From Bacteroidota bacterium (GTDB taxonomy: Bacteria; Bacteroidota; Bacteroidia; Chitinophagales; Chitinophagaceae): 64,000 bases of DNA. The stretch's first letter is position 1. Every line of letters begins with the position of its first letter. Below the pieces are notes generated by a model. It ran no database searches. It had not been told where the DNA came from and was given only the letters and a program-made list of their open reading frames with translations. Below are positions 23,678 through 45,196 of this stretch, piece by piece. The translations under genes were made by a program, and so were the position numbers. Location: positions 98,181 through 162,180 of the forward strand of contig JAFEAF010000014.1 of the NCBI GenBank assembly GCA_018266555.1, given 5' to 3'.

Positions 23678-23719
23678 CGTTCGTCATATTGGTAAATGTA
23701 ATTACCGCCATTAATTTTA
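23675..23719 (+). promoter_or_regulatory. island motif (diverged copy TAACGTTCGTCATATTG) + N20 + TAATTTTA box, upstream of regulator 1
   Basis: The 17-mer occupies 23675-23691; its first 3 nt are the TAA stop of the kinase. Exactly 20 nt later TAATTTTA occupies 23712-23719. The ATG is at 23727. Confidence 0.45.
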
Positions 23720-23726
23720 GACGCAC

Positions 23727-24353: not shown

Positions 24354-24363
24354 CCTCCCCTCA

Positions 24364-24381
24364 CTATAACATTCGTTATAG
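24364..24381. promoter_or_regulatory. perfect 7-bp inverted repeat CTATAAC-ATTC-GTTATAG (candidate operator or weak hairpin)
   Basis: Read directly from the sequence. It shares the TAAC-N4-GTT core with the 17-bp island motif and lies about two helical turns upstream of the motif copy at 24389. Confidence 0.4.
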
Positions 24382-24388
24382 ACAATCC

Positions 24389-24433
24389 TGACTTTTTTTC
24401 TATTGTTTTCAATTCATCAGTCTTCTACCTTCA
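24389..24433 (+). promoter_or_regulatory. island motif (TGACTTTTTTTCTATTG, 15/17) + N20 + TACCTTCA, upstream of the OmpA-like gene
   Basis: 17-mer at 24389-24405; a weaker -7-like box at 24426-24433; ATG at 24476. Confidence 0.4.
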
Positions 24434-24475
24434 ATTTGACTTATCCTCACTCGAACTTTTAAATTAAGAATAGTT

Positions 24476-25708: not shown

Positions 25709-25721
25709 AAAAACTGTGGCA

Positions 25722-27875: not shown

Positions 27876-27963
27876 GCAGGTTAGAATTTTTCAATCTGCC
27901 TTTGCTGATAAATTGATAGTGACCTAAACCTTATAGTTTATTAATTGTAATCAGAAATTATAT

Positions 27964-29082: not shown

Positions 29083-29089
29083 AATTTTT

Positions 29090-30217: not shown

Positions 30218-30246
30218 AACTTTACAATCAATTTCTTTTTTAAAAA

Positions 30247-30882
30247 ATGACTATCATGAAATTTTTATTTATCGGTTTCCTTTTTTTTATAAACGTTTCT
30301 TATTTGCCAGCATGGGAAGAACCCATCCTGTCCGAATATGAAGTACGGTTCACCCATACAGGTTATACTTTGCTTCATGGAACACTTGCGGATTGCCAGA
30401 TTCGTTCCAACGGGAAAGTAGTATTGAGTGGAATTCTCAAAGGCGAAGAAAGTGGCGAAGCCGACGATCCTGTGCTTTATCTCGGAAAATTGCATTTAGA
30501 TATTGATATGGATATATGCAGTGCTAAACGGCTTGCTAATGGTGAAGATAAGCTCTGCGGTATGCGAGTGACTGGCAATGGAACTGTAAATGTTGAGTTA
30601 GAATTATCCGACAGTTCCACCAACCAGGCTTCGTACATAAAAATCAACTATGATACAACTTTGGGAAGATTTCAAAAAACGGTGAATGGCGATTGCGATC
30701 ATGCACAGATGGTAGAAGAGGAAAAAATGGTACCGGATAAAACTATTGCCACTATATTCAACGGCCGTGAACTGCCTATGATTACAACTCGGTCTCTGAG
30801 CGGGCTTGTTATAGGACGAAGATATATTGAAAGAGATGGAAACAATGAAACGATTGTTGAATTATTGCGAAAAATACGGTGA
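30247..30882 (+). CDS. small secreted hypothetical protein (211 aa)
   Basis: Hydrophobic N-terminus MKFLFIGFLFFINVSYLPA. Several Cys residues. No motif I recognise. It is the last gene of cassette 1. Confidence 0.6.
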   Translation: MTIMKFLFIGFLFFINVSYLPAWEEPILSEYEVRFTHTGYTLLHGTLADCQIRSNGKVVLSGILKGEESGEADDPVLYLGKLHLDIDMDICSAKRLANGEDKLCGMRVTGNGTVNVELELSDSSTNQASYIKINYDTTLGRFQKTVNGDCDHAQMVEEEKMVPDKTIATIFNGRELPMITTRSLSGLVIGRRYIERDGNNETIVELLRKIR

Positions 30883-34147: not shown

Positions 34148-34189
34148 CTTTTGTTCTATTGTTACACTGAATTCAAAAAAATACTTTCG
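34145..34189 (+). promoter_or_regulatory. island motif TAACTTTTGTTCTATTG + N20 + TACTTTCG, upstream of regulator 2
   Basis: 17-mer at 34145-34161; its TAA is the kinase-2 stop codon. The box is at 34182-34189 and the ATG at 34196. Confidence 0.5.
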
Positions 34190-34195
34190 AGCCGC

Positions 34196-34825
34196 ATGAG
34201 TATAACTTTAATAATTGTAGAAGACCTGGAAGAAGTAAGAGACGGGCTGAAGAATTTTATTGGCCTCAGCAGTGATTTTAAAATACTGGACACTTATCAA
34301 ACAGCAGAAGAAGCGCTGGTTGGAATTCCAGCATTAAAACCTGATATCGTTATTATGGATATCAATCTGCCCGGTATAAGCGGTATTGATTGTATCCGGC
34401 AGTTAAAAAATATAATTCCTTCTTCTCAGTTTATTATGTTCACCGTATATGAAAATGATGAAAAAGTGTTTGAAGCATTAAAAGCCGGAGCCTCGGGTTA
34501 TATTTTAAAAAACACAGGTTTGGTTCAATTAATACAATCGTTGAAAGAATTACACGAGGGCGGCAGCCCCATGAGCGCCAACATTGCCCGAAAGCTGGTA
34601 AACGTATTTCAGAAAAATGAAAATAATTTACCCTCCATTGAATCACTCACCAACCGGGAAAATGAAATGCTTCAATTACTGTCCAAAGGTTTGTTGTATA
34701 AGGAAATTTCCGATAAAATGAGTATCTCCATCAATACTGTAAAGCAGCATATTCACAACATTTATGAAAAGCTGCATGTTCAAAACAGGACGGAAGCAAT
34801 TAATAAAGCCCTGGGAAAAAATTGA
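34196..34825 (+). CDS. NarL/FixJ (LuxR-type HTH) response regulator, copy 2
   Basis: Start chosen by alignment to copy 1 (MSITLIIVEDLEEVRDG versus MPIKVSIVEDLTEVRDG). The track's TTG start at 34151 lies inside the motif. Shared stretches: PDIVIMDINLPGISGIDCIR and FTVYENDEKV. Confidence 0.92.
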   Translation: MSITLIIVEDLEEVRDGLKNFIGLSSDFKILDTYQTAEEALVGIPALKPDIVIMDINLPGISGIDCIRQLKNIIPSSQFIMFTVYENDEKVFEALKAGASGYILKNTGLVQLIQSLKELHEGGSPMSANIARKLVNVFQKNENNLPSIESLTNRENEMLQLLSKGLLYKEISDKMSISINTVKQHIHNIYEKLHVQNRTEAINKALGKN

Positions 34826-34835
34826 TCTACAGAGC

Positions 34836-34880
34836 TAACTTTTGTGCTATTGCCCCGCTTTATCTGGCTGTGTAGCTTTA
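34836..34880 (+). promoter_or_regulatory. island motif TAACTTTTGTGCTATTG (16/17) + N20 + TAGCTTTA, upstream of the TPR-like gene, copy 2
   Basis: 17-mer at 34836-34852; box at 34873-34880; ATG at 34894. Confidence 0.5.
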
Positions 34881-34893
34881 GTAAAATATTTTC

Positions 34894-36969
34894 ATGAAAG
34901 CATTTCTTTCTGTCATTATTGTTTTGCTATTTCAACTGACCGCCTATGCACAGCAAAACCCTAAGACACAGAAAGAGTTGGAAGCCTATATGAAATCGCT
35001 TCAGAAGAAATCGGACTCGATGCTGAATTCTATGAAAAAGAAAAGCGACGGTAAAACCAACAATATTCCCGGCTCAATAAAAACGGAAAAAAACAAAACG
35101 AATAAAACAACCGAAAGCCTGCCTGCCGGACAAGCAGGCTTAAAACTTCCGGAATTGGACTCTGTAAGAGTTCGCAGCCTGCCAAAAAAAATTCTTACTC
35201 CTGCTGAACTCAGCACTTATCTTAACAACCTTTATGATCAGTTATGCCGAAAATTCCCGGAAGATGCAGTGAATTCTGCAAAATCCATTGCGTCAAAATT
35301 GGGGAATGATCCTGCAAAATTAGAAGCCGCTGCATTAATCGGCTGGCAAAACGGCGCCGATGAAGAAGCAATTATTCTTATTACGAAAGCAACAACTGTA
35401 ATCCAGGATGGATTGCTGCTTACGAATGCAGGAGGCATACTCGATATGTATGGCATGCCTGAAAAAGCCATTCCTGTTTTGCGTACCGTGGTAAGCCATG
35501 CGCCGCAAAATGTTATTGCGCTTAATAATCTTGGCCAGGCCTATACTGCGATTGGCATGAGGGATTCCGCAATGTATTATTTCAGCCGATGCCTCAGTTT
35601 ATCATCACAGCATCCCGAAGCCAATAATACGGCAGGGTATATTGAATTAAAAAGAGGAAACAAAGAAAAAGCACAATCTTATTTTGAAAACTCGCTTCGT
35701 GGCAGTTTTAATATTTCTGCATATAACGGGTTAGCCACCATTTTCAAAGACAACAAAGACAAATTAAAGATTGCGCATCTCATCAAACCAAAGGTGAATA
35801 AGCCTGAATATTTTAACCAGTTTAAATACAACAAATTTCCCAGGCAATGCCTGAATGTATTTGAAACTGCAACAGTACGGGAAGAATTCAATGCGTACAA
35901 AAAAATGCTGAACGCTGAAATGAACAAATTCAGAGTATTGGAAAAAGAAGCAGAAAAAAATATGGGGAAAAACTGGGCAGAAGAAGTTAACAGTAAAACC
36001 ATGGAAAATGTAATGAAGGGGAAAAGCTATATGCGGCCATACCAGTTAATGGGAAGTGTCATGTCGGCTGAAGCAGAACTGGGATACCGGAACGATATTG
36101 CTGATATGCAAAAATTTGAATCAGAAAACAGGGAGCAGTATAATCAGATAGCAAAAGAATACAATGATGCTTATGAGCAATTGATGAAATCAAGTGGTTA
36201 TAGTTGCGCAAAAGAAAATGAACTCAAAAACAGGTATCTGCCGCTGTTTGCACAGTTGAATGAAGAATGGCAAAGTCGCAACATGCTGATCCAAAACAAA
36301 TACATTGACGATCTCCTTTACTGGTGTTATTTCAGTGCTACAGATTTGAATGATTACCGCCACCGGTTTTATTTCTGGGTAAAAAATTATCTGTACAAAG
36401 TAAACGGGTTATCCCAGGTAGAAATATTGGAGCCCTGTGAAGAAACAGAAACAGATGAAATAGAACAACCTGTTCCAGCAGAATTAAAAGAGTTTGATTG
36501 CCCGGCTGAGGTAGAGATAGGCTTTGCGGTGGGTAAGCTTACAATAAATTGTGAAAAATTTTCTTTCAAAGCAGGTGAGCTCATCGTTTTTAAATTCGAA
36601 AAACAATTTACCGGTAAACGGCAATCAACCATTAGTATTGGTGGTGGAATGAGTATAGATGCTGCAGAAAAAGTAGGGCCAGTGAAGGCAGGGTTGGAAG
36701 CCGGTATGGACATGTCCATGTATTTCACTTTTGATAAAGCGGGCAATTGCACGGATGCAGGAATGACGTACAGCGCTTCAGCAGGTGCCGGTATTAATTT
36801 TTCTGCAGGGGAGCGAATTAAAATAAAAAGAGATCTTGGTTACATGGGCGGGTCAGTAGGATGGAAATTCGGAATCAACTCAGGTGTAAGTTTTGAAACG
36901 CCTGCTATGCTGAAGGATAAACCGGAAACACCGGTAAATAAAAATGTAAAAAATTATAATTCTAACTGA
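34894..36969 (+). CDS. secreted coiled-coil/TPR-like protein with a Gly-rich beta C-terminal module (copy 2)
   Basis: Signal peptide MKAFLSVIIVLLFQLTAYAQ. TPR-like stretch NNLGQAYTAIGMRDSAMYYFSRCLSLSSQHPEANN. Gly/Ala/Ser-rich C-terminus (ISIGGGMSIDAAEKVGPVKAGLEAGMDMS...). Confidence 0.7.
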   Translation: MKAFLSVIIVLLFQLTAYAQQNPKTQKELEAYMKSLQKKSDSMLNSMKKKSDGKTNNIPGSIKTEKNKTNKTTESLPAGQAGLKLPELDSVRVRSLPKKILTPAELSTYLNNLYDQLCRKFPEDAVNSAKSIASKLGNDPAKLEAAALIGWQNGADEEAIILITKATTVIQDGLLLTNAGGILDMYGMPEKAIPVLRTVVSHAPQNVIALNNLGQAYTAIGMRDSAMYYFSRCLSLSSQHPEANNTAGYIELKRGNKEKAQSYFENSLRGSFNISAYNGLATIFKDNKDKLKIAHLIKPKVNKPEYFNQFKYNKFPRQCLNVFETATVREEFNAYKKMLNAEMNKFRVLEKEAEKNMGKNWAEEVNSKTMENVMKGKSYMRPYQLMGSVMSAEAELGYRNDIADMQKFESENREQYNQIAKEYNDAYEQLMKSSGYSCAKENELKNRYLPLFAQLNEEWQSRNMLIQNKYIDDLLYWCYFSATDLNDYRHRFYFWVKNYLYKVNGLSQVEILEPCEETETDEIEQPVPAELKEFDCPAEVEIGFAVGKLTINCEKFSFKAGELIVFKFEKQFTGKRQSTISIGGGMSIDAAEKVGPVKAGLEAGMDMSMYFTFDKAGNCTDAGMTYSASAGAGINFSAGERIKIKRDLGYMGGSVGWKFGINSGVSFETPAMLKDKPETPVNKNVKNYNSN

Positions 36970-36970
36970 A

Positions 36971-38026
36971 ATGAACCAGTTTTTATTCCTGATCTTCCTT
37001 TTATTTTCAAACGCCTGCTTTGCTCAGGATTCAAAGAATGAAGCAAGGAGTTTTTATGAAAAAGAAATGGCTGTTTGCGGCGGAGAGGATTCCATATTCA
37101 GCAGAAAAGGAAAATGGAAAAGACAGGGTGAAGATAATTTAGTGTTTCCGGATAAAACATTTCCGAAAAGTCAATATAAATTTTCATTCGTCCGCCTCGA
37201 CAGCATTTTAGCGATGCTGATAAACAGCATCCTTGATTTAAGCGGAATGGAACCTCGCTGGCAAAGAATTATCCGGGAAGATGCTTATATACCTGGCGGG
37301 CCGGTACCCTACCATCTTTCTAATCTCTTTTTCACTTATTACTGTAACACTAACACGAACAAGATCCTATTGGGTGATGAAACTTTTAACTGGGTTTACG
37401 TATTTGTAAACAAAATGAATTGGTTTTTTCATGATGTAGATAAATGGATAATCAACGATGACGGTAAACCAAGAACCATTTACCAGCTTCCGCCCAAAGC
37501 CGGGAAATGGAAGGGAATGACTGTGTATGAACCGGATTTTTTCAATGGCACTCCGGCAAAAGTCACTCATCGGACTGTGGTGATCGGGCGCAATGGAAAA
37601 ATTCCCTGGCGAACGCTGACACAAAAAGAATATTTAACGGGACTGAAGAATGATTATGAAACGAAAGTAAAAAAATTTAAAGCGGGGTCCGGTTATGAAG
37701 CAGATTATAAAAATAAATTAAAGTACATCCATGACTATCTCTCCATCACCGATGAAGAAACCATACAACAGCCCGCTATCATTGATCCTAAATCGGGGAT
37801 TTGGGGTTTCAAAGGAAAATTCGGCGATGAAGAAGAAGGCGGATACCGCCTGGCGCTTTTCGGCGGCGGCACAAAATATTTTGATACCACCCTGCCCCGG
37901 TATGTTCCTCAACTTATTCAACTCATGTGGATATATAACACGAATGAGCCAGTGGCTTTACATTTCAAAAATCAATTTGAAGAAAATTTTCCTTTGGAAA
38001 AACTGAAAGCGATGATTGATAAATAA
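36971..38026 (+). CDS. secreted protein of the '...AMIDK' family, member C
   Basis: Signal peptide. GKWKGM, NGKIPWRTLTQKEYL, LPRYVPQLIQL, and the C-terminus FPLEKLKAMIDK. It starts 1 nt after the preceding stop. Confidence 0.75.
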   Translation: MNQFLFLIFLLFSNACFAQDSKNEARSFYEKEMAVCGGEDSIFSRKGKWKRQGEDNLVFPDKTFPKSQYKFSFVRLDSILAMLINSILDLSGMEPRWQRIIREDAYIPGGPVPYHLSNLFFTYYCNTNTNKILLGDETFNWVYVFVNKMNWFFHDVDKWIINDDGKPRTIYQLPPKAGKWKGMTVYEPDFFNGTPAKVTHRTVVIGRNGKIPWRTLTQKEYLTGLKNDYETKVKKFKAGSGYEADYKNKLKYIHDYLSITDEETIQQPAIIDPKSGIWGFKGKFGDEEEGGYRLALFGGGTKYFDTTLPRYVPQLIQLMWIYNTNEPVALHFKNQFEENFPLEKLKAMIDK

Positions 38027-38053
38027 ATGATCATATAAAAAGGAGAACTTAAT

Positions 38054-39688
38054 ATGAAAACCGTAAATTTTTATTCGGTTGGCTTCGTTGTCCTGATAAT
38101 AGTTGCTTTCTCACAACAGTCGCTCAGCCAACTGACCAATTTTTATAGCAGCCCCAATTATTCAAATTTCATTAGCACCATGATTGATAATAGTATCTGG
38201 AAATCATCTATGGAAAATTATACAAAGGGATATAAAGGCAACTCCTCCGTTACTAAATCCCCCTCTTCAATAACATCTAAGCCCGAAGAAATTCCTGAGT
38301 ATCGCAGGTACCGGGCAGTTCAATTCAAACCAACCGGCACTAGGCTGGTATTGCAGGAATATCTTGATGCCGTCAAGATAAACGCAGCAGATAAAATAGA
38401 ATTAAAAGATTTGATTTTGAAAATTTTTAAAGAATACGAGGCAGAAGCTGCGGCGAAAGGTTATCCGAATGACTGGGCTTTAGCCTTTGTTTCTTACGTG
38501 GGGCTTAATAGCCATGTTTATAATGGTAACACGGAAAAACTGATTATTCCTTTTGAGCAAAATGTGGGATTGCGGGATGTAGTAGCTGAATATGCTACTG
38601 ACAACGGGCTTTTCAACAATGTGACCGATCAAAAAAAACAAGAATTATATGAACTCATGATTATTGCCGGTGGGCTTACCTATCACTATTATGAAAAAGC
38701 CTGCAGGGAAAAAAACGGTGAAGACATAAAAAGTTGCCGGCTTTCTGCGGAGCAAAATTTAAAAATTGCAGGCATCATACCTTCTTTAAAAAAACAAGAT
38801 GATAACTCAAGCAATAATCAAACCATCATGAACGGCTCCATCAGTATGAATGATTATGAATTCATCCCTCCTGAAAATTGGGAAACCAATAAAAATAAAG
38901 ATTTTATTTCCATAAAGAATCCCAGGTCCGGATGTATCATTCAAATACTCACACCACAGCCTTCTTCCGGAAACATAGAGCAAGATGCAAATGCTGTTTT
39001 TGAAATGATGTACAAAGGATGGAGCTATCAGCAGCAAGGTGAAAAAAGTTTTTTATTGTCCACAGGTATTTTACCAAAGGGGCAGGAATATTTTATGAAA
39101 GAAGGAACGATGACGGGGTACAATGGTAACGGACAGTATCTCATTGAAGAGGGTGTTGCTATGGTAGTAAAAGCAGGCAGTAAGATTGTGATTATTGCTG
39201 CCCGGCATAACAGCAGTTCATTGGGCCACGATGAATGTTACAGGAATTACAATACGTGGAGGCGGTTTATAAACAGCTTCTCCATCAAAAATATTTTGCC
39301 CGAAAAAAATAATGCACCTGATGCCAGGCAGAGAATTTTGGGTTTGTGGAAAATTATTTCAACCGGAGTGGTATCTGCAGACTATGTATTTGCCGCCAAT
39401 GGAAATTATGAACATGGTGGCGGGATAGGATCTTCCACTACCACATCCGATATGTATTATAAATATATTTATAACCGGGCCTATCCTTTCCAGGGAAGCG
39501 GCAGCTATACGATTTCCGGCGATCAGCTTTTATTGAAAAAAAGAAGTGAAAACAATACAGAGCAAATAAGATTCCGGTTTGAAAAAATAAATCATGGAGG
39601 CGCCGGATGGAAAGATAAAATCTGGTTGTTAAAAAAAGATAATTTGGGAGAATCGGAAGTATGTTATGAAAAAGAAACGAAGGAATGA
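38054..39688 (+). CDS. secreted hypothetical protein (544 aa)
   Basis: Hydrophobic N-terminus ending SLSQ. No motif recognised. It is in the same operon-like run of genes. Confidence 0.65.
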   Translation: MKTVNFYSVGFVVLIIVAFSQQSLSQLTNFYSSPNYSNFISTMIDNSIWKSSMENYTKGYKGNSSVTKSPSSITSKPEEIPEYRRYRAVQFKPTGTRLVLQEYLDAVKINAADKIELKDLILKIFKEYEAEAAAKGYPNDWALAFVSYVGLNSHVYNGNTEKLIIPFEQNVGLRDVVAEYATDNGLFNNVTDQKKQELYELMIIAGGLTYHYYEKACREKNGEDIKSCRLSAEQNLKIAGIIPSLKKQDDNSSNNQTIMNGSISMNDYEFIPPENWETNKNKDFISIKNPRSGCIIQILTPQPSSGNIEQDANAVFEMMYKGWSYQQQGEKSFLLSTGILPKGQEYFMKEGTMTGYNGNGQYLIEEGVAMVVKAGSKIVIIAARHNSSSLGHDECYRNYNTWRRFINSFSIKNILPEKNNAPDARQRILGLWKIISTGVVSADYVFAANGNYEHGGGIGSSTTTSDMYYKYIYNRAYPFQGSGSYTISGDQLLLKKRSENNTEQIRFRFEKINHGGAGWKDKIWLLKKDNLGESEVCYEKETKE

Positions 39689-39741
39689 TGGTTTGATGGC
39701 TTGAAGGTAATTCTGTGAATTAATTAATAATCGCTATTGAT

Positions 39742-41064
39742 ATGAAAAAAATACTGACTGTTCTTTTACTTTTTGCCCTGCAAAGTTTAAATGCACAAAC
39801 AGACAGTTCATTGCTAAAATTTAATGAGTCTGGAGATTTTACCGGGTTTGGCGACCCTGATGGAAAACCGGTAAGTAAGGAAATAACTGTGGCAGGCGGA
39901 ACCATCCTTTCTGAGGACGGAAGAGTGGAATTAATTTTTCCAGAGGGCGCATTAACAGTAAATACCAACATCAGCATTCAGCCAACTACAAATCTTTTAA
40001 ATAGTGGAACAGGCAAAGCTTATAAGTTTGAACCATCAGGCATACAATTCAAAAAGCCGGTACAAATTATTTTTCATTATACAAAAGAGGAATCTGAAAC
40101 CTGCCCGGCTGACCTGATGAATATTGCCATGCAGGATCAAAATGGTAAGTGGAGTTTTGATAAATATGAAGAATGGGATAGTACCACAAATACTTTAAAG
40201 GGCTTTATCCATCATTTTTCTTATTACGCCAATTCCAATGGAGCCCGGATTTCACCGGCAAAGAATTTTATTATTGTAGAAAGTAATGTAAATATTAATT
40301 TTTATGACCGGTACGGTACTGTTCAGTCGGGTCCGCTTATCGGGAATAGTGATCGTCTTTCAGTAGGAAGCAGGTATTGGGTGGTGAATGGTGTCAGGGA
40401 AGGTAGTGATGTGGAAGGCTTTGCCACTGCGCCACCAATCGGCACTTCGCTGGGTGTATATACAGCCCCAAAAATAATGCCCCCAAAAAATCCGGTAGTC
40501 ATCCATCTGTTTTTTGAATACTATTCGGAAATATTAATGAAAGAAGTTTGGGGCGTAGTAAGCTGCAAAATCCTAGTGTATGATGAATATAAAATAGAGA
40601 TCAATCATGAATATACCGGAAGAGCATCCATGCACAGCAAAATTGGTGATAAAGGAACTTTCGTGGTTCGTGTTTCGCCAAATCGTAATTTCAGAATAAG
40701 TGAAATAAAAAACTATGAACCCGTTGTAATCAAAGAAGGAAGGAATGGTCCTTTCAAAGAAAAAGTGTTTACTGACGGTTACCCGGGAACTATTGATATA
40801 ACCGACTCCCATCTTTCAGACAGTTTAAGCCATGATTATCCTCCCGAAGTTTATTTTGAATTTGCGCCAAAGGAAATTGTCATGTGTGAAATTCAGCACA
40901 ATGCCCGGGGTATTTATGGGGAACGGGGACCGGTTACCTTTATGCGTGTGCCCGAAGAAATCAATTTCATTGCTAATGGACAGAAACAGCGCTATAACAT
41001 AACCATAGGGCGGGGTGAAACATATAAACTTATTGTGACGCCACACGGCAGGGGAAATCAATAA
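39742..41064 (+). CDS. secreted protein with an N-terminal ZU5-like domain carrying an HFS motif, followed by an Ig-like region and an unknown C-terminal domain (copy a)
   Basis: Signal peptide MKKILTVLLLFALQSLNAQ. ZU5-like pattern GGTILSEDGRVELIFPEGAL...ISIQP...YKFEPSGIQFKKPVQIIFHY...GFIHHFSYY. The HFS codons are at 40213-40221. Confidence 0.65.
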   Translation: MKKILTVLLLFALQSLNAQTDSSLLKFNESGDFTGFGDPDGKPVSKEITVAGGTILSEDGRVELIFPEGALTVNTNISIQPTTNLLNSGTGKAYKFEPSGIQFKKPVQIIFHYTKEESETCPADLMNIAMQDQNGKWSFDKYEEWDSTTNTLKGFIHHFSYYANSNGARISPAKNFIIVESNVNINFYDRYGTVQSGPLIGNSDRLSVGSRYWVVNGVREGSDVEGFATAPPIGTSLGVYTAPKIMPPKNPVVIHLFFEYYSEILMKEVWGVVSCKILVYDEYKIEINHEYTGRASMHSKIGDKGTFVVRVSPNRNFRISEIKNYEPVVIKEGRNGPFKEKVFTDGYPGTIDITDSHLSDSLSHDYPPEVYFEFAPKEIVMCEIQHNARGIYGERGPVTFMRVPEEINFIANGQKQRYNITIGRGETYKLIVTPHGRGNQ

Positions 41065-41127
41065 TAATTTTTTGCGAATAGGCTCCTAAATGAACAAATT
41101 ATTTTTTGATAAAGATTAATTCCTGAC

Positions 41128-41711
41128 ATGATACCGGTAAAAAAAACTTCACTGTCATTCTGGCTATCTTTATCCAGCAATTATCTGCACAGAATATTTT
41201 ATTTACCGCCAATTTTGAAAATAAAAAGATTGATTCGTCATCGTGGCAAATTGTAACCGGTAACTGGCGTATTTGCGATGTGGATGAAATGAGAATAGCC
41301 CCGGCAGAAAATGGTTACCGGTATATGTTACTGTCGGGCGGCAAAGGTTATACGGGTGATAATATTATTCGTCTCATTGTAGATCTGCCGGATTCGCTTA
41401 AAGCCAAAAAGATTAAACTAAGTTTCTCTTATTATATTCCCGCCAATGTAATGGGAACAAAAATGGAAGTTGAATTTATTCAAAAGGAAATAAAAGACGG
41501 ACGGAGAGGCATTCTTTGGGTAGATCTTTTACGACGTGTAAAAGAAAAGTGGACGGCCTATCAAAAAACAGTAAATGTTCCTGCGGGTGCCAATTCAGTT
41601 TACATCACTTTCTTTGGTTTTAAATCTTCAGGCGATAAAGACAGGATGGTTTGCTTTGATAATATTGCTGTTTCATGGATAAACCAATTCATTAAAAAAA
41701 CAACGGAATAA
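41128..41711 (+). pseudogene. secreted beta-sandwich (CBM/LamG-like) protein interrupted by a frameshift in an A8 tract
   Basis: The ATG at 41128 (MIPVKK) is in the +1 frame relative to the long ORF. That ORF is open from 41127 and reads ...KKNFTVILAIFIQQLSAQNILFTANFENKK...CFDNIAVSWI. The two frames meet at the A8 run (41139-41146), and A9 would fuse them. The track instead starts at an internal GTG (41280). Confidence 0.55.
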
Positions 41712-41753
41712 CTTTTGTTCTATTGCCGGTAAGAACCAATTCAGTTAGCTTTT
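41709..41753 (+). promoter_or_regulatory. island motif TAACTTTTGTTCTATTG + N20 + TAGCTTTT, upstream of ZU5-like gene b
   Basis: 17-mer at 41709-41725; its TAA is the stop of the preceding gene. The box is at 41746-41753 and the ATG at 41772. Confidence 0.5.
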
Positions 41754-41771
41754 ACACAAATTAAAAGCAAA

Positions 41772-43112
41772 ATGAAACAATTTTTCTTACTGGTTTTTTT
41801 ATCACTGTATGGAATATGTTTATATGCCCAAAATGACAAACAAAGTAAACCATATAGTACTCCCTTTGGAACTCCGTTTGGGAAAATTATCAGTGCAAAA
41901 ATTGATAGCCGGGGTGGTGAACTAAGATCGGAAGATAGCGGGCTTGAAATAATCATTCCGGGAGCTGCGCTTGATACCAGCACAACTATTTCAATACAAT
42001 CCATACATAACGAACTAAACGAAAATGACGAAGGCGCATATCAGTTGGAACCAACAGGAATAAACTTTAAAAAACCGCTTCAGCTCATTTTTCATTTTAA
42101 AGACTCAAACGTTGACATTAAACGTATCGGATGGCAGGATTCAAAAGGAATTTGGCATAGTGTAAATGGAGCGGTTATTGATACAGTACAAAAAACTATT
42201 TGCTGTTTTGTTTCACATTTTAGCCGCTGGTCCAGATTTGATAAAATTTATTTAAGCCCTAACAAAGCAAGGGTTAAAGTGAATAAAACCGTTTCATTTA
42301 CAATTATCAGCCTCGAAGATATCAGGGATCGTCTGGGCGATGAACTTTCCGCATCTTCGGATGATAACAGTAGTGATGATAATGCACTTTTAGCAGCACC
42401 ACATCCTTATCATTACTTTAGCAGAGAATGGACAGTAAATGGAATAGTCAACGGAGATAATACTGTTGGAACAGCAACGAAACAAGATAACCGCCATGCT
42501 GTTTACAAAGCCCCCGGCACCACTCCGCAAAACAATCCCGTTGCTGTTTCAGTACAAATTCTCTCAGATAAAAACCAAAAGCTTTTACTGACAAGCAATG
42601 TTACCGTCATTGGTGATCAATATCATTTCACCTACATTCACATTGACGAAAACGGATGTTTTTTTTTGGTGGATTCTTCAAGCTGCATTATCAACATGCA
42701 AAAAGATAAGGTTAGTATTTCTAATATCATCAATTATAAACCCTGGAGTGATTGGCCTCAGTGTGATAAGCCCTGCAAGACGACCTGGACCAACAAAGAA
42801 TCCCTTAAAGGCTTAGTAGAAATTACAGGCATTACGGGTTCAAGCGTAACGCCTGCTTCAGAAGGAGTGCTTCCAAATGTGAATATTGTTTTTGCACCCG
42901 CAATGGGTAATACACCCTCAGAATCAGTTACCTGCAAAGATCACAGCTTTAACGTTCCAAGCATGCCGAGAATGGCAGATCCAAAAATCATCAACTTTGA
43001 TATTGATGGCGACGATGTCATCATTCATTATGCAGGTAAAGCATCGAGAAATGAATTGGTGCTTACAGGCAAAGAAGAAAAAACGATGATTTACATCTAT
43101 AAGGTGAACTAA
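41772..43112 (+). CDS. secreted ZU5-like/HFS protein (copy b)
   Basis: Signal peptide. GGELRSEDSGLEIIIPGAAL...ISIQS...YQLEPTGINFKKPLQLIFHF...CFVSHFSRW. The HFS codons are at 42216-42224. It is colinear with 39742-41064. Confidence 0.65.
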   Translation: MKQFFLLVFLSLYGICLYAQNDKQSKPYSTPFGTPFGKIISAKIDSRGGELRSEDSGLEIIIPGAALDTSTTISIQSIHNELNENDEGAYQLEPTGINFKKPLQLIFHFKDSNVDIKRIGWQDSKGIWHSVNGAVIDTVQKTICCFVSHFSRWSRFDKIYLSPNKARVKVNKTVSFTIISLEDIRDRLGDELSASSDDNSSDDNALLAAPHPYHYFSREWTVNGIVNGDNTVGTATKQDNRHAVYKAPGTTPQNNPVAVSVQILSDKNQKLLLTSNVTVIGDQYHFTYIHIDENGCFFLVDSSSCIINMQKDKVSISNIINYKPWSDWPQCDKPCKTTWTNKESLKGLVEITGITGSSVTPASEGVLPNVNIVFAPAMGNTPSESVTCKDHSFNVPSMPRMADPKIINFDIDGDDVIIHYAGKASRNELVLTGKEEKTMIYIYKVN

Positions 43113-43154
43113 CTTTTGTTCTATTGTTATTAAATAACCAAGCCGGTAAATTTA
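43110..43154 (+). promoter_or_regulatory. island motif TAACTTTTGTTCTATTG + N20 + TAAATTTA
   Basis: 17-mer at 43110-43126; its TAA is the stop of ZU5-like gene b. The box is at 43147-43154 and the ATG at 43182. Confidence 0.5.
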
Positions 43155-43181
43155 AAATTTAAATCCTCACATATATTTAAA

Positions 43182-43868
43182 ATGAAAATTAATGTTGTCC
43201 TGATCTTAACAGTAAATCTTTGGACCTGTCAACAATCAACGGCACAAACGATTGTCAAAAAAGGAACGAAATACGATACCATTATCCGGAAGCATGTTAC
43301 GAAGCCGGTTCTAAAACCAAAGCCAAAAATTGCCATTGTAAAACCACCGGATACTACAAAAATAGTAGTAATGCCCACTCCGGAATTTGTGAATCAACCT
43401 TATTATTTTGATAAAGACAATAATAAACTGATAAAGCTGGAAAATGCCACAGCTCAAATGGTGACGAGGAAGAAAACATTAGGACTGAAAGGCGCTAAGC
43501 AATCGCTCACTATGGATGGCACATCATCGAATATCCGGTTTACGGCAAAAAAAGATATTGGCTTTATGATCAAAACAAGCGGCGATGTGATTGATCTTAC
43601 TTCTTATATCAAACTATACCAGTTTGTGCCATTAGATCAGAAGCGGGAAGTGACCATCAATTCAAAAGAAGGGCTATTGACTGACAAAGAAGAATCAAAA
43701 GGAAAGCTGATCAACTTTAGTGTAAAAATGATCGCTGCAGATAATTACCTGATCCAATTATCAGATCAATTAGAAGCTGGTGAATATGGATTTGTTTGGG
43801 TAAAAAATATGGAGCTGAAAGAGTTTATCGTTTTTGCTTTTGGAATAGACTGGAAAAGCAGTAATTGA
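43182..43868 (+). CDS. secreted hypothetical protein (228 aa), paralogue of 44567-45196
   Basis: Signal peptide ending STAQ. Motifs shared with the 209-aa protein: PEF.N..YF..KDN..LI.LE, L.G..SN.R, GEY.F, and the C-terminal FAFGI(D/N). Confidence 0.6.
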   Translation: MKINVVLILTVNLWTCQQSTAQTIVKKGTKYDTIIRKHVTKPVLKPKPKIAIVKPPDTTKIVVMPTPEFVNQPYYFDKDNNKLIKLENATAQMVTRKKTLGLKGAKQSLTMDGTSSNIRFTAKKDIGFMIKTSGDVIDLTSYIKLYQFVPLDQKREVTINSKEGLLTDKEESKGKLINFSVKMIAADNYLIQLSDQLEAGEYGFVWVKNMELKEFIVFAFGIDWKSSN

Positions 43869-43877
43869 TCCGTATTC

Positions 43878-43922
43878 TAACTTTTGTTCTATTGCCCGGC
43901 CCTAACTTTAATACGAACTTTC
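43878..43922 (+). promoter_or_regulatory. island motif TAACTTTTGTTCTATTG + N20 + GAACTTTC
   Basis: 17-mer at 43878-43894, 10 nt after the preceding stop. The box is at 43915-43922 and the ATG at 43935. Confidence 0.45.
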
Positions 43923-43934
43923 AAAAAAAATAAT

Positions 43935-44567
43935 ATGAAAAGAAACTATCTCTTCGCTATTGTATTGTTACCATTAAGCGCACTTGCTCAACTCGGCATC
44001 GGGTTAAAAGGTGGATTGAATTTTGCCAATGTCTCCGGTGCCTCTTCCATAAACAGCAGCAACCGCTCCGGATTCCATGTGGGTGTATTCCTGGCACCAG
44101 CCGGTAAAAGTATCATCAGTTCCCGGACAGAATTAGAATATTCCCGGCAGGGTTATAGTTTCAAATCCGGCGCCAATACCGGCAATGTAAACCTGGATTA
44201 TATTTTGTTACCACAATTAATGGGTATCAACATCACTAAGTTTGTCCAGATACAACTCGGTGCCCAGATGGCTTTTCTCCTCAATGCCAAAGCAGACAGT
44301 ACCAATACGGGGGGAAGCTCCGGTCCTTATAGTTCTATTATGAGCTACTACAATAAATTTGATTACAGCTTTGCAGCCGGTGCGGAAATCCATCCTGTAT
44401 CCGGATTACTGATCGGGGCAAGGTATAATATTGGCCTCGGCAAAATTTATAAAAGTATGGAATCCGGTCAAATGCCTTCCTTTAGTACGGAAGACGCCAA
44501 AAACAATGTTGTACAAATTTTTGCAGGTTGGACGTTTGGTAATAACTCATCAAAAAAGAAAAAATAA
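43935..44567 (+). CDS. small outer-membrane beta-barrel protein (porin-family/OMP_b-brl-like)
   Basis: Start at MKRNYLFAIVLLPLSALAQ. Alternating-hydrophobic strands (GIGLKGGLNFANV, GFHVGVFL, ...VVQIFAGWTF), with an aromatic residue near the C-terminus before a Lys tail. Confidence 0.75.
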   Translation: MKRNYLFAIVLLPLSALAQLGIGLKGGLNFANVSGASSINSSNRSGFHVGVFLAPAGKSIISSRTELEYSRQGYSFKSGANTGNVNLDYILLPQLMGINITKFVQIQLGAQMAFLLNAKADSTNTGGSSGPYSSIMSYYNKFDYSFAAGAEIHPVSGLLIGARYNIGLGKIYKSMESGQMPSFSTEDAKNNVVQIFAGWTFGNNSSKKKK

Positions 44568-45196
44568 TGAAAAAAATATTTTTATCATCAATGCTGATAG
44601 CAGTGATGAACTTTCCTAATGCGCAAACATATCCTGATCCGGAATTTGCAAATGAAATCTATTTTTTAAAAAAAGATAACCCGTATTCATTGATACGTCT
44701 TGAGAAAGGCGCTTCCAAAATGGAGACAAAAACCAATATGATCAAAGGTTCTGAACAAGGATATTCTCTGGACGGCACCAAATCCAATGTAAGAATCCAG
44801 GGTGGAAATAATCTGTCTTTTGTTTTTTCAACCGGGACATCATCCTCATCTTCAAACAGCAGATCGGATTCAATGATGAAAGCAAACGGTGTCGACTCCA
44901 AGATGCTGAACCTGGAAGGTATGATGGATCCCACCAACAACATTACACTTTATAAAATGGATATAGCAAAAGATCAAAGAAAAATTTACCTGATGAAACA
45001 AGGTGGTTATTTCGGCAGTCATAAAAACCAGAGCAGTGATAAGTACACATTCAGCCTGAAAAAAATCAGGGACGGATATTGGGAATTAGTGATAGATAAA
45101 CCCTTGCCAAAGGGTGAGTATGCTTTTACTACGATGGGAATGGGCATGCCGTCCATGGATGGAGGGATGACTCTCTTTGCTTTTGGTATCAATTGA
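44567..45196 (+). CDS. secreted hypothetical protein (209 aa), paralogue of 43182-43868
   Basis: ATGA start/stop overlap with the OMP gene. Signal peptide MKKIFLSSMLIAVMNFPNAQ. C-terminus TLFAFGIN. Confidence 0.6.
   Translation: MKKIFLSSMLIAVMNFPNAQTYPDPEFANEIYFLKKDNPYSLIRLEKGASKMETKTNMIKGSEQGYSLDGTKSNVRIQGGNNLSFVFSTGTSSSSSNSRSDSMMKANGVDSKMLNLEGMMDPTNNITLYKMDIAKDQRKIYLMKQGGYFGSHKNQSSDKYTFSLKKIRDGYWELVIDKPLPKGEYAFTTMGMGMPSMDGGMTLFAFGIN

What the first reader, a model, noticed from the sequence alone, without database searches (positions are those of the whole stretch)
39742..43112. Two Sec-signal proteins with a ZU5-like domain and an HFS autoproteolysis-type motif
Both proteins (39742-41064 and 41772-43112) show the ZU5 pattern after the signal peptide: GG.(I/L).SEDG..(L)I(F/I)P.GAL ... 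ISIQ ... Y.(F/L)EP(S/T)GI.FKKP(V/L)Q(I/L)IFH(Y/F). About 45 residues later come FIHHFS|YY (codons 40213-40221) and FVSHFS|RW (42216-42224). HFS is the self-cleavage site of eukaryotic ZU5 and related autoproteolytic domains (PIDD, UNC5CL, Nup98), where the scissile bond is F|S. Bacterial ZU5 domains have so far been discussed mainly in cytoplasmic conflict systems. Here the domain is exported and followed by an Ig-like segment (Y.AP...P.NPV.V) and an unknown C-terminal domain. This suggests an extracytoplasmic protein that cleaves itself to release or activate its C-terminal part.
Basis: partly seen in the sequence, partly recalled or inferred. Interest (0 to 1): 0.75.

Follow-up and report, generated by a model that had tools for sequence, protein, structure and literature searches.

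The report
Exported proteins with self-cleaving ZU5 domain
Two neighbouring genes of a Chitinophagaceae (Bacteroidota) bacterium encode exported proteins that start with a ZU5-type domain ending in an invariant His-Phe-Ser self-cleavage motif; the feature is real, but it belongs to a class of bacterial self-cutting modules that was predicted in 2012 and shown to cleave in 2026, here in a little-studied arrangement.

Summary
ORFs 39742-41064 and 41772-43112 encode paralogous proteins of 440 and 446 aa. Each has a signal peptide, a ZU5 domain, HFS, an Ig-like domain and a ~180-aa beta domain.

ZU5 identity holds by sequence and by structure. Pfam gives 22.0 and 18.3 bits against a cut-off of 21. 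A ZU5-only family profile hits ankyrin, ZO-1 and UNC5B ZU5 domains at E down to 1e-9. The AlphaFold model's top 11 Foldseek hits are all ZU5.

In 186 full-length relatives His and Phe are invariant, and the next residue is only Ser (163), Thr (21) or Cys (2). These are the acyl-shift nucleophiles. The motif lies in the turn between the last two ZU5 strands. Self-cleavage at F159|S160 and F150|S151 is therefore very likely, but it is untested.

Sec-exported N-terminal ZU5 autopeptidases were described in 2012. A 2026 preprint showed HF|S cleavage in homologous microbial "MAIN" domains, and its supplementary table lists Chitinophagaceae "ZU5-Ig-Myco_19_kDa/TbpB_B_D" proteins.

Three things are unusual here. 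The module is N-terminal, there is no membrane or wall anchor, and the gene cluster is conserved and linked to a two-component system. The payload's function is unknown. Verdict: a new member of a known kind, of moderate interest.

The parts
39742..41064 (+). ZU5 protein a (440 aa): signal peptide, ZU5, HFS, Ig-like domain, C-terminal beta domain
   Evidence: ORF. More than 184 homologues, all 'hypothetical'. AF2 model pLDDT 87.3, pTM 0.77.
39742..39795 (+). Signal peptide of a (residues 1-18); predicted SPase I cut A18|Q19
   Evidence: MKK, hydrophobic helix 2-18, then NA|Q. Q19 invariant 45/45. Bacteroidetes Q-rule (PMC5837995). No lipobox.
39865..40239 (+). ZU5 domain of a (residues ~42-166)
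   Evidence: Pfam PF00791 18.3 bits. Foldseek top 11 hits all ZU5, TM 0.61-0.63 to single-domain ZU5. Profile A3 hits ankyrin, ZO-1 and UNC5B ZU5, E 1e-9 to 0.03.
40213..40221 (+). H158-F159-S160 of a; predicted scissile bond F159|S160
   Evidence: Lies in the turn between strands 151-158 and 161-166 of the model. HF invariant, third residue only S/T/C.
40243..40527 (+). Ig-like (Big_2-like) beta-sandwich of a (residues ~168-262)
   Evidence: Models. Foldseek gives only generic Ig/Fab/Big_2 matches. No Pfam hit.
40528..41061 (+). C-terminal beta domain of a (residues ~263-440), function unknown
   Evidence: pLDDT above 90 for most of it. No Pfam, NCBIfam or PDB relative. Homologous to the C-domain of b (hhalign 98.6%, E 1e-15).
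41772..43112 (+). ZU5 protein b (446 aa), divergent paralogue with the same four-part architecture
   Evidence: Orthologues in L006 (67%), L025 (52%) and L024 (39%).
41772..41828 (+). Signal peptide of b (residues 1-19); predicted cut A19|Q20
   Evidence: C16 is not in a lipobox context (YGIC).
41868..42242 (+). ZU5 domain of b (residues ~33-157)
   Evidence: Pfam PF00791 22.0 bits, above the 21-bit cut-off. hmmsearch with A3 gives E 2e-46.
42216..42224 (+). H149-F150-S151 of b; predicted scissile bond F150|S151
   Evidence: Aligned with HFS of a. Conserved in b-type orthologues.
42246..43109 (+). Ig-like domain plus C-terminal beta domain of b (residues ~159-446); Cys-rich
   Evidence: BLASTP alignment to a up to residue 261. 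hhalign of C-domains. Cys at 296, 305, 331, 335, 388.
31172..34825 (+). Sensor histidine kinase (Reg_prop/Y_Y_Y/HisKA_3/HATPase_c, 991 aa) and LuxR-type response regulator (224 aa) that head the conserved cluster
   Evidence: Pfam. Adjacent to ZU5 genes in 10 related loci.
34894..39688 (+). Three co-conserved exported proteins: TPR protein (691 aa), 351-aa protein, DUF6683 protein (544 aa)
   Evidence: Pfam. Synteny. The TPR and 351-aa proteins are fused into one ~1030-aa protein in L003, L004 and L010.
43182..45196 (+). Co-conserved trio downstream of b: 228-aa exported protein, small OMP beta-barrel (PF13568), 209-aa paralogue of the first

Best explanation
Both genes encode exported members of a Chitinophagaceae protein family whose N-terminal domain is an autoproteolytic ZU5 domain. 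This domain belongs to the ZU5/GPS-GAIN/'MAIN' superfamily. The proposed course of events is as follows. (1) The protein is exported through Sec. Signal peptidase I cuts at A|Q, and the new N-terminal Gln is probably cyclised (inferred from sequence and the Bacteroidetes Q-rule). With no lipobox and no T9SS C-terminal domain, the protein probably stays in the periplasm or is held at the outer membrane by partners (inferred). (2) The ZU5 beta-sandwich folds. HFS sits in the tight turn between its last two strands. The buried Phe strains the backbone. The Ser hydroxyl, helped by the adjacent His, attacks the Phe carbonyl. An N-to-O acyl shift gives an ester that is hydrolysed, which breaks F159|S160 in a and F150|S151 in b. 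This mechanism is taken from PIDD, Nup98, FIIND, GAIN and MAIN. Here it is supported by fold, position and conservation, but it has not been demonstrated. (3) The products are a 15.6-kDa (a) or 14.5-kDa (b) ZU5 fragment and a 31.7-kDa (a) or 32.9-kDa (b) fragment. The larger fragment starts with the last ZU5 strand, so the two pieces are expected to stay non-covalently associated (inferred by analogy). (4) This polarity (ZU5 | payload) is that of FIIND/PIDD and of the lipoprotein relatives (lipid anchor - ZU5 - HF|S/T - ectodomain). The nick pre-arms the protein, so the C-terminal Ig-like plus beta-domain module can be set free by force, partner binding or degradation of the ZU5 piece. That module is probably a ligand-binding unit. 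It would act within a conserved envelope gene cluster controlled by a two-component system (TPR, DUF6683, small OMP and others). This last step is speculative.
For: ZU5 identity: Pfam PF00791 gives 22.0 bits for b (cut-off 21) and 18.3 for a. 34 of 45 family members hit ZU5 and no other family. More distant relatives score 23.7-36.9 bits. The ZU5-only profile A3 matches only ZU5 proteins in PDB: ankyrin-3 9.6e-10, ankyrin-2 1.1e-9, ankyrin-1 5e-7, ZO-1 1.5e-6, UNC5B 0.027. The AF2 model has pLDDT 87.3, and its top 11 Foldseek PDB hits are all ZU5, with TM 0.61-0.63 to single-domain ZU5. GAIN appears only at rank 26. Catalytic motif: HFS lies between strands 151-158 and 161-166, matching the location described for CARD8, PIDD and Nup98 (PMC3210808). 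H and F are 186/186 and the third residue is S163/T21/C2. 300 of 335 complete modules across phyla have H-[FLY]-[ST]. HF[ST] is present in 59 of 60 genomic loci. Precedent: homologous bacterial MAIN domains cut at HF|S by Edman sequencing, S-to-A abolishes cleavage, S-to-T restores it, and the fragments co-purify. Chitinophagaceae ZU5-Ig-Myco_19_kDa/TbpB_B_D proteins were recovered by PSI-BLAST from that domain. Export: signal peptides and the invariant Q, plus covarying Cys pairs such as C338-C388 (78 both / 8 / 3 / 99 neither). Anchor-release logic in relatives: lipobox - ZU5 - TTGHF[ST] - acidic linker - Lcl_C or Cys-rich ectodomains. Cluster: conserved synteny with HK/RR, TPR, DUF6683 and the 228/OMP/209 trio.
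Against: No cleavage has been shown for these proteins or any close relative. Everything rests on homology and conservation. Protein a alone is below Pfam's ZU5 cut-off. I could not inspect model coordinates, so the burial of Phe and the Ser-carbonyl geometry are unchecked. Many ZU5 domains (ankyrin, UNC5B, ZO-1) do not cleave, and some bacterial tandem ZU5 proteins lack the motif (P0222). There is no anchor, so 'release from what?' has no answer for this family. A possible C121-C275 disulfide (co-occurrence 85/44/12/47) could keep the fragments covalently joined. The payload has no recognisable function: Foldseek best E is 7e-3 with generic Ig hits, and TbpB appears only at E 0.1. Localisation is inferred from the absence of sorting signals.
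Confidence: 0.72

Rival explanations
1. The ZU5 domain does cleave, but cleavage is only a one-off maturation step. The two chains never separate, so it would be a structural nick with no release or activation. SEA domains and many GAIN domains behave this way.
For: Fragments of MAIN, GAIN and FIIND remain tightly associated. The full-length model has a fairly high pTM of 0.77, which suggests a compact three-domain unit. C121 in ZU5 and C275 in the C-domain tend to co-occur and could form an inter-fragment disulfide. No anchor exists from which release would be useful.
Against: In relatives the same module sits between a lipid anchor and large ectodomains, where release is the obvious purpose. 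The C121/C275 association is not strict: 44 sequences have C121 alone, and b lacks the pair.
Confidence: 0.2
2. The ZU5 domain is a non-catalytic protein-protein interaction module, as in ankyrin, UNC5B and ZO-1. HFS is conserved for structural reasons only.
For: The closest solved structures and sequence hits are all non-cleaving ZU5 domains. The Phe has a structural role in the hydrophobic core. Motif-less bacterial ZU5 repeats exist.
Against: Across 186 family members the residue after HF is restricted to Ser, Thr or Cys. That is hard to explain structurally and is the expected pattern for an acyl-shift nucleophile. The His is also invariant. Homologous bacterial domains with the same motif do cleave.
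Confidence: 0.06
3. The proteins are polymorphic-toxin-like effectors. An N-terminal ZU5 releasing peptidase is followed by a variable C-terminal toxin, with neighbouring genes as immunity proteins.
For: Zhang et al. 2012 found ZU5 at the N-terminus of Sec-exported polymorphic toxins. There are several paralogues per locus, and BLASTP cannot align the C-terminal halves of a and b.
Against: The C-domains of a and b are homologous (hhalign 98.6%, E 1e-15), so this is divergence and not cassette swapping. There are no RHS, SpvB or toxin domains, and no toxin or enzyme fold. All neighbours carry signal peptides, so they do not look like cytoplasmic immunity proteins, and they are syntenic across genera.
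Confidence: 0.04

Closest known systems
Microbial GAIN-like 'MAIN' domains (B. subtilis YfkN and about 15,000 RefSeq proteins; Brogan & Rudner, bioRxiv 2026, 10.64898/2026.05.12.724683)
   Same: Exported bacterial proteins. [quoted passage not shown] An H-F-S/T motif sits in a beta-turn. Cleavage at HF|S is shown experimentally for other members. Chitinophagaceae proteins labelled ZU5 - Ig - Myco_19_kDa/TbpB_B_D are in their Table S3.
   Different: The paper's typical order is signal peptide - enzymes/adhesins - MAIN - wall anchor, so the N-terminal payload is released. Here the module is N-terminal, the payload is C-terminal, and no SLH, sortase or lipid anchor exists. I could not test whether these two sequences themselves are reachable from YfkN. 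This subfamily is not discussed or tested in the main text.
N-terminal ZU5 autopeptidases of Sec/TcdB-TcaC-exported polymorphic toxins and surface proteins (Zhang et al. 2012, PMC3482391)
   Same: Signal peptide followed directly by a ZU5 autopeptidase at the N-terminus of an exported bacterial protein. The predicted role is release at the cell surface.
   Different: Those proteins are large, with SpvB, beta-propeller, RHS repeats and C-terminal toxins or hydrolases. These are ~440 aa with an Ig-like domain and one small beta domain, and have no toxin or immunity pair.
FIIND / ZU5-UPA of PIDD, NLRP1, CARD8 and UNC5CL
   Same: ZU5 fold. An [H/S]-F-S site at the C-terminal end of ZU5 just before a long strand. 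The polarity is the same: the ZU5 piece holds a C-terminal effector piece, and the fragments stay associated.
   Different: No UPA domain and no death-fold effector follow the site here. The proteins are extracytoplasmic and bacterial. The His is adjacent to the site (HFS, as in PIDD and Nup98), unlike the SFS of FIIND.
GAIN/GPS domain of adhesion GPCRs and polycystin-1
   Same: Same superfamily and chemistry (H-L/F-S/T). Extracellular. Fragments stay associated and are separated by force. BAI3 GAIN is a weak Foldseek hit (rank 26, E 0.14). Some top census hits carry a GPS-like C..C.C..H[FL]TNFAILL motif.
   Different: There is no GAIN_A helical subdomain, no 7TM partner and no Cys-rich GPS signature in a or b. 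ZU5 structures match far better than GAIN.
Non-catalytic ZU5 domains of ankyrins, UNC5B and ZO-1 (Pfam PF00791)
   Same: These are the best sequence and structure matches. The shared core motifs are GG, iP.GAL and eP.G..F.KPv.
   Different: They lack the HF[S/T] site and do not self-cleave. They are cytoplasmic eukaryotic adaptor domains.

Membership tests
ZU5 domain (Pfam PF00791; ECOD ZU5/Nup98-C/GAIN-B group) | Significant match to ZU5 sequence profiles | tested here: met
   b scores 22.0 bits against the 21-bit cut-off, while a scores 18.3 and is below it alone. 34 of 45 family members hit ZU5 only. Family profile A3 against PDB gives ankyrin-3 9.6e-10, ZO-1 1.5e-6 and UNC5B 0.027, and all 9 hits are ZU5.
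ZU5 domain (Pfam PF00791; ECOD ZU5/Nup98-C/GAIN-B group) | ZU5 beta-sandwich fold | tested here: met
   AF2 model pLDDT 87.3. Foldseek PDB top 11 hits are all ZU5, probability 1.00, with TM 0.61-0.63 and rmsd 3.8-4.1 A to ankyrin-R ZU5.
Autoproteolytic ZU5/GAIN/MAIN subclass | H-hydrophobic-S/T motif in the turn before the last beta-strand of the sandwich | tested here: met
   HFS at 158-160 lies between strands 151-158 and 161-166. Aligned HF[ST] is present in all of A1, A3 and A4.
Autoproteolytic ZU5/GAIN/MAIN subclass | The nucleophile position accepts only Ser, Thr or Cys; His and Phe are conserved | tested here: met
   In 186 full-length family members HF is 186/186 and the third residue is S163/T21/C2.
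Autoproteolytic ZU5/GAIN/MAIN subclass | Cleavage of the F|S bond, abolished by a Ser-to-Ala mutation | not testable with these tools
   Needs protein expression. It has been shown for other MAIN domains and for CARD8/NLRP1.
Autoproteolytic ZU5/GAIN/MAIN subclass | Fragments remain non-covalently associated after cleavage | not testable with these tools
   Inferred only, because the C-fragment begins with the last ZU5 strand.
MAIN-domain surface proteins (Brogan & Rudner 2026) | Recoverable by PSI-BLAST from the YfkN MAIN domain | tested here: inconclusive
Chitinophagaceae proteins with the same three-part architecture are in their Table S3, but identity with this family is inferred from architecture and taxonomy.
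MAIN-domain surface proteins (Brogan & Rudner 2026) | Order is signal peptide - payload - MAIN - cell-surface anchor (SLH, sortase or wall-binding) | tested here: not met
   The module directly follows the signal peptide. There is no SLH, LPXTG or other anchor domain in Pfam or NCBIfam, and no lipobox.
FIIND (ZU5-UPA-death fold) | UPA domain and a CARD/DD effector after the cleavage site | tested here: not met
   The separate model of residues 161-440 (pLDDT 86.4) matches only generic Ig/Fab sandwiches, best E 7e-3. No Pfam hits.
Polymorphic toxins with N-terminal ZU5 (Zhang et al. 2012) | RHS/SpvB/beta-propeller scaffold, swappable C-terminal toxin, adjacent immunity gene | tested here: not met
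   No such domains were found. The C-domains of a and b are homologous. The neighbours are exported and syntenic across genera.
T9SS cargo proteins of Bacteroidota | C-terminal sorting domain (Por_Secre_tail / TIGR04183 / TIGR04131) | tested here: not met
   No Pfam hit at E up to 1-10 and no NCBIfam hit at E up to 0.1.
Bacterial lipoproteins | Lipobox with Cys at +1 of the signal peptidase II site | tested here: not met
   a has no Cys before residue 121. C16 of b is in the context YGIC, followed by LYA|Q. Myxococcales, Longimicrobiales and rumen relatives do have lipoboxes.

The most novel reading that the evidence does not exclude
The cleaved ZU5 protein could be a bacterial counterpart of the tethered-agonist logic of adhesion GPCRs. 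After self-cleavage the two pieces stay together in the periplasm. An envelope cue (force, ligand binding to the C-terminal beta domain, or proteolysis of the ZU5 piece) separates them. The newly exposed end, or the freed fragment, is then sensed by the beta-propeller (Reg_prop/Y_Y_Y) histidine kinase that is encoded next to these genes in most genomes. This would couple an irreversible proteolytic 'fuse' to two-component signalling. A second unexcluded variant is that the Ser ester intermediate is resolved by an envelope nucleophile in place of water, which would attach the ZU5 fragment covalently.
Probability: 0.06. Interest if true: 0.8.

Novelty: new member of a known kind. Interest (0 to 1): 0.4.

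Why it matters
Self-cleaving ZU5/GAIN-type domains control inflammasomes (NLRP1, CARD8), the PIDDosome and adhesion GPCRs in animals. Their bacterial relatives are only now being tested. This family is a compact (~47 kDa), soluble, anchor-free version with the FIIND-like polarity, where the ZU5 piece holds a C-terminal payload. It occurs in several paralogues per genome, inside a conserved cluster of envelope proteins headed by a two-component system. That makes it a convenient model for two questions: what the nick is for when there is no anchor, and what separates the fragments. It would also assign a first biochemical property to a block of 'hypothetical' Chitinophagaceae genes (TPR, DUF6683, 228/OMP/209). 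It does not overturn anything. It extends a known mechanism to a new architecture and context.

Tried and rejected
(1) Single-sequence and full-length-profile searches of PDB sequences gave nothing significant. Only the ZU5-only profile A3 worked.

(2) NCBIfam has no model for either protein.

(3) The fold of residues 161-440 was searched against PDB and the viral BFVD library. Only generic Ig/Fab/Big_2 similarities came back, so UPA, enzyme, toxin and pore-former readings were dropped.

(4) The C-fragment profile against PDB sequences returned only TbpB at E about 0.1. I kept this as a lead, not a result.

(5) The search for homologous proteins with the 131-aa ZU5 profile returned mostly fragments with no names, so it said little about architectures.

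It was rerun with A4.

(7) The polymorphic-toxin reading was rejected after hhalign showed that the a and b C-domains are homologous and that the neighbours are exported and syntenic.

(8) The promoter/terminator scan found no excess over shuffled sequence and was not used.

I could not measure Phe burial, the Ser-carbonyl distance or the C121-C275 distance.

Full report
OBSERVATION. They are paralogues, with 32% identity over residues 4-256 and BLASTP E 9e-33. By BLASTP the last ~180 residues do not align. Both begin with a classical Bacteroidota signal peptide that ends in A|Q: MKKILTVLLLFALQSLNA|QTD and MKQFFLLVFLSLYGICLYA|QND. The Gln is invariant in 45 relatives. This fits the 'Q-rule' for signal peptidase I substrates of this phylum (PMC5837995, found). 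HFS is encoded at 40213-40221 and 42216-42224, as stated. An HF[STC] tripeptide is expected by chance about 0.08 times per protein of this size, so the weight of the observation comes from conservation, described below.

THE N-TERMINAL DOMAIN IS A ZU5 DOMAIN. Pfam gives only ZU5 (PF00791): 22.0 bits for b, just above the curated 21-bit cut-off, and 18.3 bits for a, just below it. On its own that is borderline, so I tested it three further ways. First, 34 of 45 diverse family members hit ZU5 individually and hit nothing else. More distant relatives recovered from genomes score 23.7-36.9 bits. Second, a profile built only from the ZU5 region of diverse members (alignment A3) finds nine proteins among all PDB chain sequences, and all nine are ZU5 proteins: ankyrin-3 (E 9.6e-10), ankyrin-2 (1.1e-9), ankyrin-1 (5e-7), ZO-1 (1.5e-6) and UNC5B (0.027). 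Third, an AlphaFold2 model of protein a built on a 45-sequence alignment is confident (mean pLDDT 87.3, pTM 0.77). Its eleven best Foldseek matches in PDB are all ZU5 domains, with probability 1.00 and TM-scores of 0.61-0.63 against single-domain ankyrin-R ZU5. A GAIN domain (BAI3) appears only at rank 26, with E 0.14. Membership of the ZU5 fold family is therefore established by sequence and by predicted structure.

THE HFS MOTIF BEHAVES LIKE A CATALYTIC SITE. In the model, H158-F159-S160 lies in the turn between the last two strands of the sandwich (strands 151-158 and 161-166). This is the position described for the SF|S and HF|S sites of CARD8, NLRP1, PIDD and Nup98: a loop at the C-terminal end of ZU5, just before a long strand, with the Phe buried (PMC3210808). 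His and Phe are invariant in the 45-sequence alignment, and residue 160 is Ser (39) or Thr (6). I widened the sample with a scan of one genome per species, two searches of the 5.8-billion-protein collection and an exhaustive HMMER search of 1.84 billion cluster representatives. In 186 full-length family members (400-520 aa, a single N-terminal ZU5) HF is present 186/186. The following residue is Ser in 163, Thr in 21 and Cys in 2, and never anything else. Ser, Thr and Cys are exactly the side chains that can perform an N-to-O or N-to-S acyl shift, and a purely structural role would not restrict the position in this way. Across all 335 complete modules retrieved from several phyla, 290 have HF[ST] and 10 have H[LY][ST]. 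Most of the 35 exceptions are tandem ZU5 repeats with 'RFG.FA', which look like non-catalytic derivatives, or HFC variants. In the genome scan, 59 of 60 loci have HF[ST] at the end of the module, and the exception is truncated by the contig end.

WHAT FOLLOWS THE SITE. Residues ~168-262 form an Ig-like sandwich, and residues ~263-440 form a further all-beta domain. I modelled residues 161-440 separately with a trimmed alignment (pLDDT 86.4, pTM 0.81). Against PDB the best E-value is 7e-3, and every match is a generic two-sandwich Ig/Fab arrangement with TM at most 0.31. Against predicted viral structures only Big_2/Hoc-like Ig domains appear. No UPA domain, death fold, enzyme or toxin fold is detectable, and Pfam and NCBIfam are silent even at permissive thresholds. 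A profile of this region finds only TbpB chains in PDB, at E about 0.1, which is below significance. It does echo the 'TbpB_B_D' and 'Myco_19_kDa' labels given to relatives by a structure-based parser in the literature (see below), so a small ligand-binding lipoprotein-type beta domain is a reasonable lead. The C-terminal domains of a and b cannot be aligned by BLASTP, but they are homologous: profile-profile comparison gives 98.6% probability, E 1e-15, over 150 columns at 17% identity. The whole four-part architecture is therefore shared, and the paralogues have simply diverged.

DISTRIBUTION AND RELATIVES. The full-length family is confined to Chitinophagaceae, in MAGs named Flavisolibacter, Terrimonas, Ferruginibacter, 'Sphingobacteriales UTBCD1' and others. 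Every database copy is 'hypothetical protein'. The ZU5-HF[ST] module alone is far more widespread: 24,378 cluster representatives at E<=1e-3 and 6,389 at E<=1e-10 (this count will include eukaryotic ZU5 domains). Three groups of relatives are informative. A Myxococcales lipoprotein shares ZU5 plus the Ig domain. Small lipoproteins occur in Longimicrobiales and other groups. Rumen Spirochaetales/UBP6 bacteria have a large expansion, with five or more copies per genome, of lipoproteins built as lipobox - ZU5 (with 'AAGDPIM' repeat insertions) - TTGHF[ST] - acidic linker - Lcl_C, DUF4215 or Cys-rich ectodomains of up to 1,650 aa. In these the logic is transparent: a lipid anchor, a self-cleaving module and then a payload. 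Some top hits are polyproteins of three to five tandem modules. Each module ends in C..C.C..H[FL]TNFAILL, which strongly resembles the GPS motif of adhesion GPCRs, and this supports the view that ZU5 and GPS/GAIN form one superfamily.

GENOMIC CONTEXT. The two genes sit in a cluster that is conserved across Chitinophagaceae genera. It starts with a sensor kinase that has a Reg_prop/Y_Y_Y beta-propeller sensor and HisKA_3 (31172-34147) and a LuxR-type regulator (34151-34825). Next come an exported TPR protein (34894-36969), a 351-aa protein (36971-38026), a DUF6683 protein (38054-39688), ZU5 a, a small exported protein, and ZU5 b. The cluster ends with a 228-aa protein, a small OMP beta-barrel (PF13568) and a 209-aa paralogue of the 228-aa protein. 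Related loci carry one to three ZU5 paralogues. The a-type gene usually follows DUF6683, and the b-type gene usually precedes the 228/OMP/209 trio. All these products have signal peptides. The window also holds a second, paralogous module headed by a two-component system (20711-30882) that lacks ZU5 genes. Only a and b match the ZU5 profile in the window.

MOST LIKELY MECHANISM. Shown: export signals, ZU5 fold, motif position and nucleophile-only conservation. Inferred by homology: after Sec export and signal-peptide removal the ZU5 sandwich folds. The buried Phe strains the HFS turn, and the Ser hydroxyl, assisted by the His, attacks the Phe carbonyl. An N-to-O acyl shift gives an ester that water hydrolyses. 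The products would be 15.6 + 31.7 kDa for a and 14.5 + 32.9 kDa for b. The larger piece begins with the last ZU5 strand, so the two pieces should stay non-covalently bound, as shown for MAIN, GAIN and FIIND fragments. Speculative: the nick pre-arms the protein so that the Ig-like plus beta-domain module can later be separated. The trigger could be force, partner binding or degradation of the ZU5 piece, as in NLRP1/CARD8 'functional degradation'. The module would then act, probably as a binding unit, within the envelope system encoded by the cluster. These proteins have no lipobox and no T9SS C-terminal domain. I therefore expect them in the periplasm or held at the outer membrane by partners, and what they are released from is an open question. 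Covarying cysteines agree with an oxidising compartment (C338-C388: 78 both, 8 and 3 alone, 99 neither). The partial association of C121 in ZU5 with C275 in the C-domain (85/44/12/47) raises the possibility of an inter-fragment disulfide.

COMPARISON WITH WHAT IS KNOWN. [quoted passage not shown] They proposed that ZU5 processing is a general feature of bacterial surface proteins, and they united ZU5, GPS and Nup98 in one superfamily. Brogan and Rudner (bioRxiv, May 2026) showed experimentally that homologous 'MAIN' domains of Bacillota cleave between Phe and Ser of HFS, by Edman sequencing. They also showed that Ser-to-Ala blocks cleavage, Ser-to-Thr restores it, and the fragments co-purify. 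Their ~15,000-protein set came from PSI-BLAST seeded with the YfkN domain. Their structure-based domain table classes the MAIN domain as ECOD 'ZU5' or 'GPS'. It lists many Chitinophagaceae proteins (Chitinophaga, Flavihumibacter, Niabella, Niastella, Flavisolibacter ginsengisoli), several per genome, as 'ZU5 - Ig/Big_2 - Myco_19_kDa' or 'ZU5 - Ig - TbpB_B_D'. That is the architecture found here. The family is thus already catalogued, though only in a supplementary table. It does not fit the arrangement the paper describes as near-universal (signal peptide - payload - MAIN - anchor), and it has not been discussed or tested. I could not run the PSI-BLAST that would prove these two sequences fall in that set, so direct membership is marked inconclusive. 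Relative to FIIND/PIDD the family shares the fold, the site and the polarity, but it lacks UPA and a death-fold effector. Relative to polymorphic toxins it shares the N-terminal placement, but it lacks RHS/SpvB, a toxin and an immunity gene.

VERDICT. Cleavage itself is untested. The kind of system is known: it was predicted in 2012 and demonstrated for relatives in 2026. This is a new, uncharacterised member with an unusual anchor-free, N-terminal arrangement and a conserved gene context linked to a two-component system. I rate interest at 0.4. I give 0.72 confidence to the best explanation as a whole. Within it, my own estimate is about 0.85 for 'is an autoproteolytic ZU5/MAIN-type domain that cleaves at F|S' and much lower for the downstream release scenario.

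Noticed in passing
window 41128-41711 (+): The gene between the two ZU5 genes appears frameshifted. The ATG at 41128 is out of frame with the long ORF 41280-41711. Adding one A to the A8 run at 41139-41146 restores an intact 194-aa exported protein (MIPVKKNFTVILAIFIQQLSAQ|N...). It could be a homopolymer sequencing error, a pseudogene or slippage. Orthologues (185-215 aa) lie upstream of the a-type gene in L003 and L009.
   Followed up: partly
window 20711-30882 and 31172-45196: There are two paralogous modules, each headed by a Reg_prop/Y_Y_Y/HisKA_3 kinase (39% identical) and a LuxR regulator (58% identical), followed by exported proteins. 25593 is related to TPR 34894. 27964 and 29090 are related to 36971. 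Only the second module has ZU5, DUF6683 and the 228/OMP/209 genes. The first has an OmpA-family protein instead.
   Followed up: partly
window 34894-38026; loci L003 3868-6948, L004 2243-5365, L010 5308-7872: The TPR protein (691 aa) and the following 351-aa protein are encoded as one fused protein in the related loci: 1026 aa in L003, 1040 aa in L004 and 854 aa in L010. This Rosetta-stone hint suggests the two work together.
   Followed up: no
window 43182-45196: A 228-aa and a 209-aa exported protein are paralogues (27% identity, E 6e-17; both end in FAFGI[DN]). They flank a small OMP beta-barrel (PF13568). This trio is the most constant neighbour of b-type ZU5 genes across genera. It matches no known family.
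   Followed up: partly
loci L027-L062 (rumen Spirochaetales / UBP6 MAGs): There is a large expansion, five or more per genome, of lipoproteins built as lipobox - ZU5 - 4 to 8 'AAGDPIM' repeats inserted before the last strand - invariant TTGHF[ST] - poly-acidic linker - Lcl_C (PF07603), DUF4215 or Cys-rich ectodomains, up to 1,650 aa. It is a clear anchor / self-cleaving module / payload design with the anchor at the N-terminus.
   Followed up: partly
proteins P0223, P0224, P0227, P0232; P0222: These are polyproteins of 3-5 tandem ZU5-like modules. Each module ends in C..C.C.K(T)[DN]H[FL]TNFAILL, which closely resembles the GPS/Stachel motif of adhesion GPCRs. P0222 has tandem modules without the motif ('RFGIFA').
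   Followed up: no
family alignment, positions 121, 275, 338, 388 of protein a numbering: Cys338 and Cys388 covary almost perfectly (78 both, 8 and 3 alone, 99 neither), which suggests a disulfide in a subfamily. Cys121 (ZU5) and Cys275 (C-domain) co-occur more often than expected (85/44/12/47). If they pair, the two autoproteolytic fragments would stay covalently linked until reduced.
   Followed up: partly
proteins P0034, P0040, P0099, P0260: These are natural HFC variants of the motif, with Cys replacing Ser/Thr, which implies an N-to-S acyl shift. They would be useful natural controls for mutagenesis.
   Followed up: no
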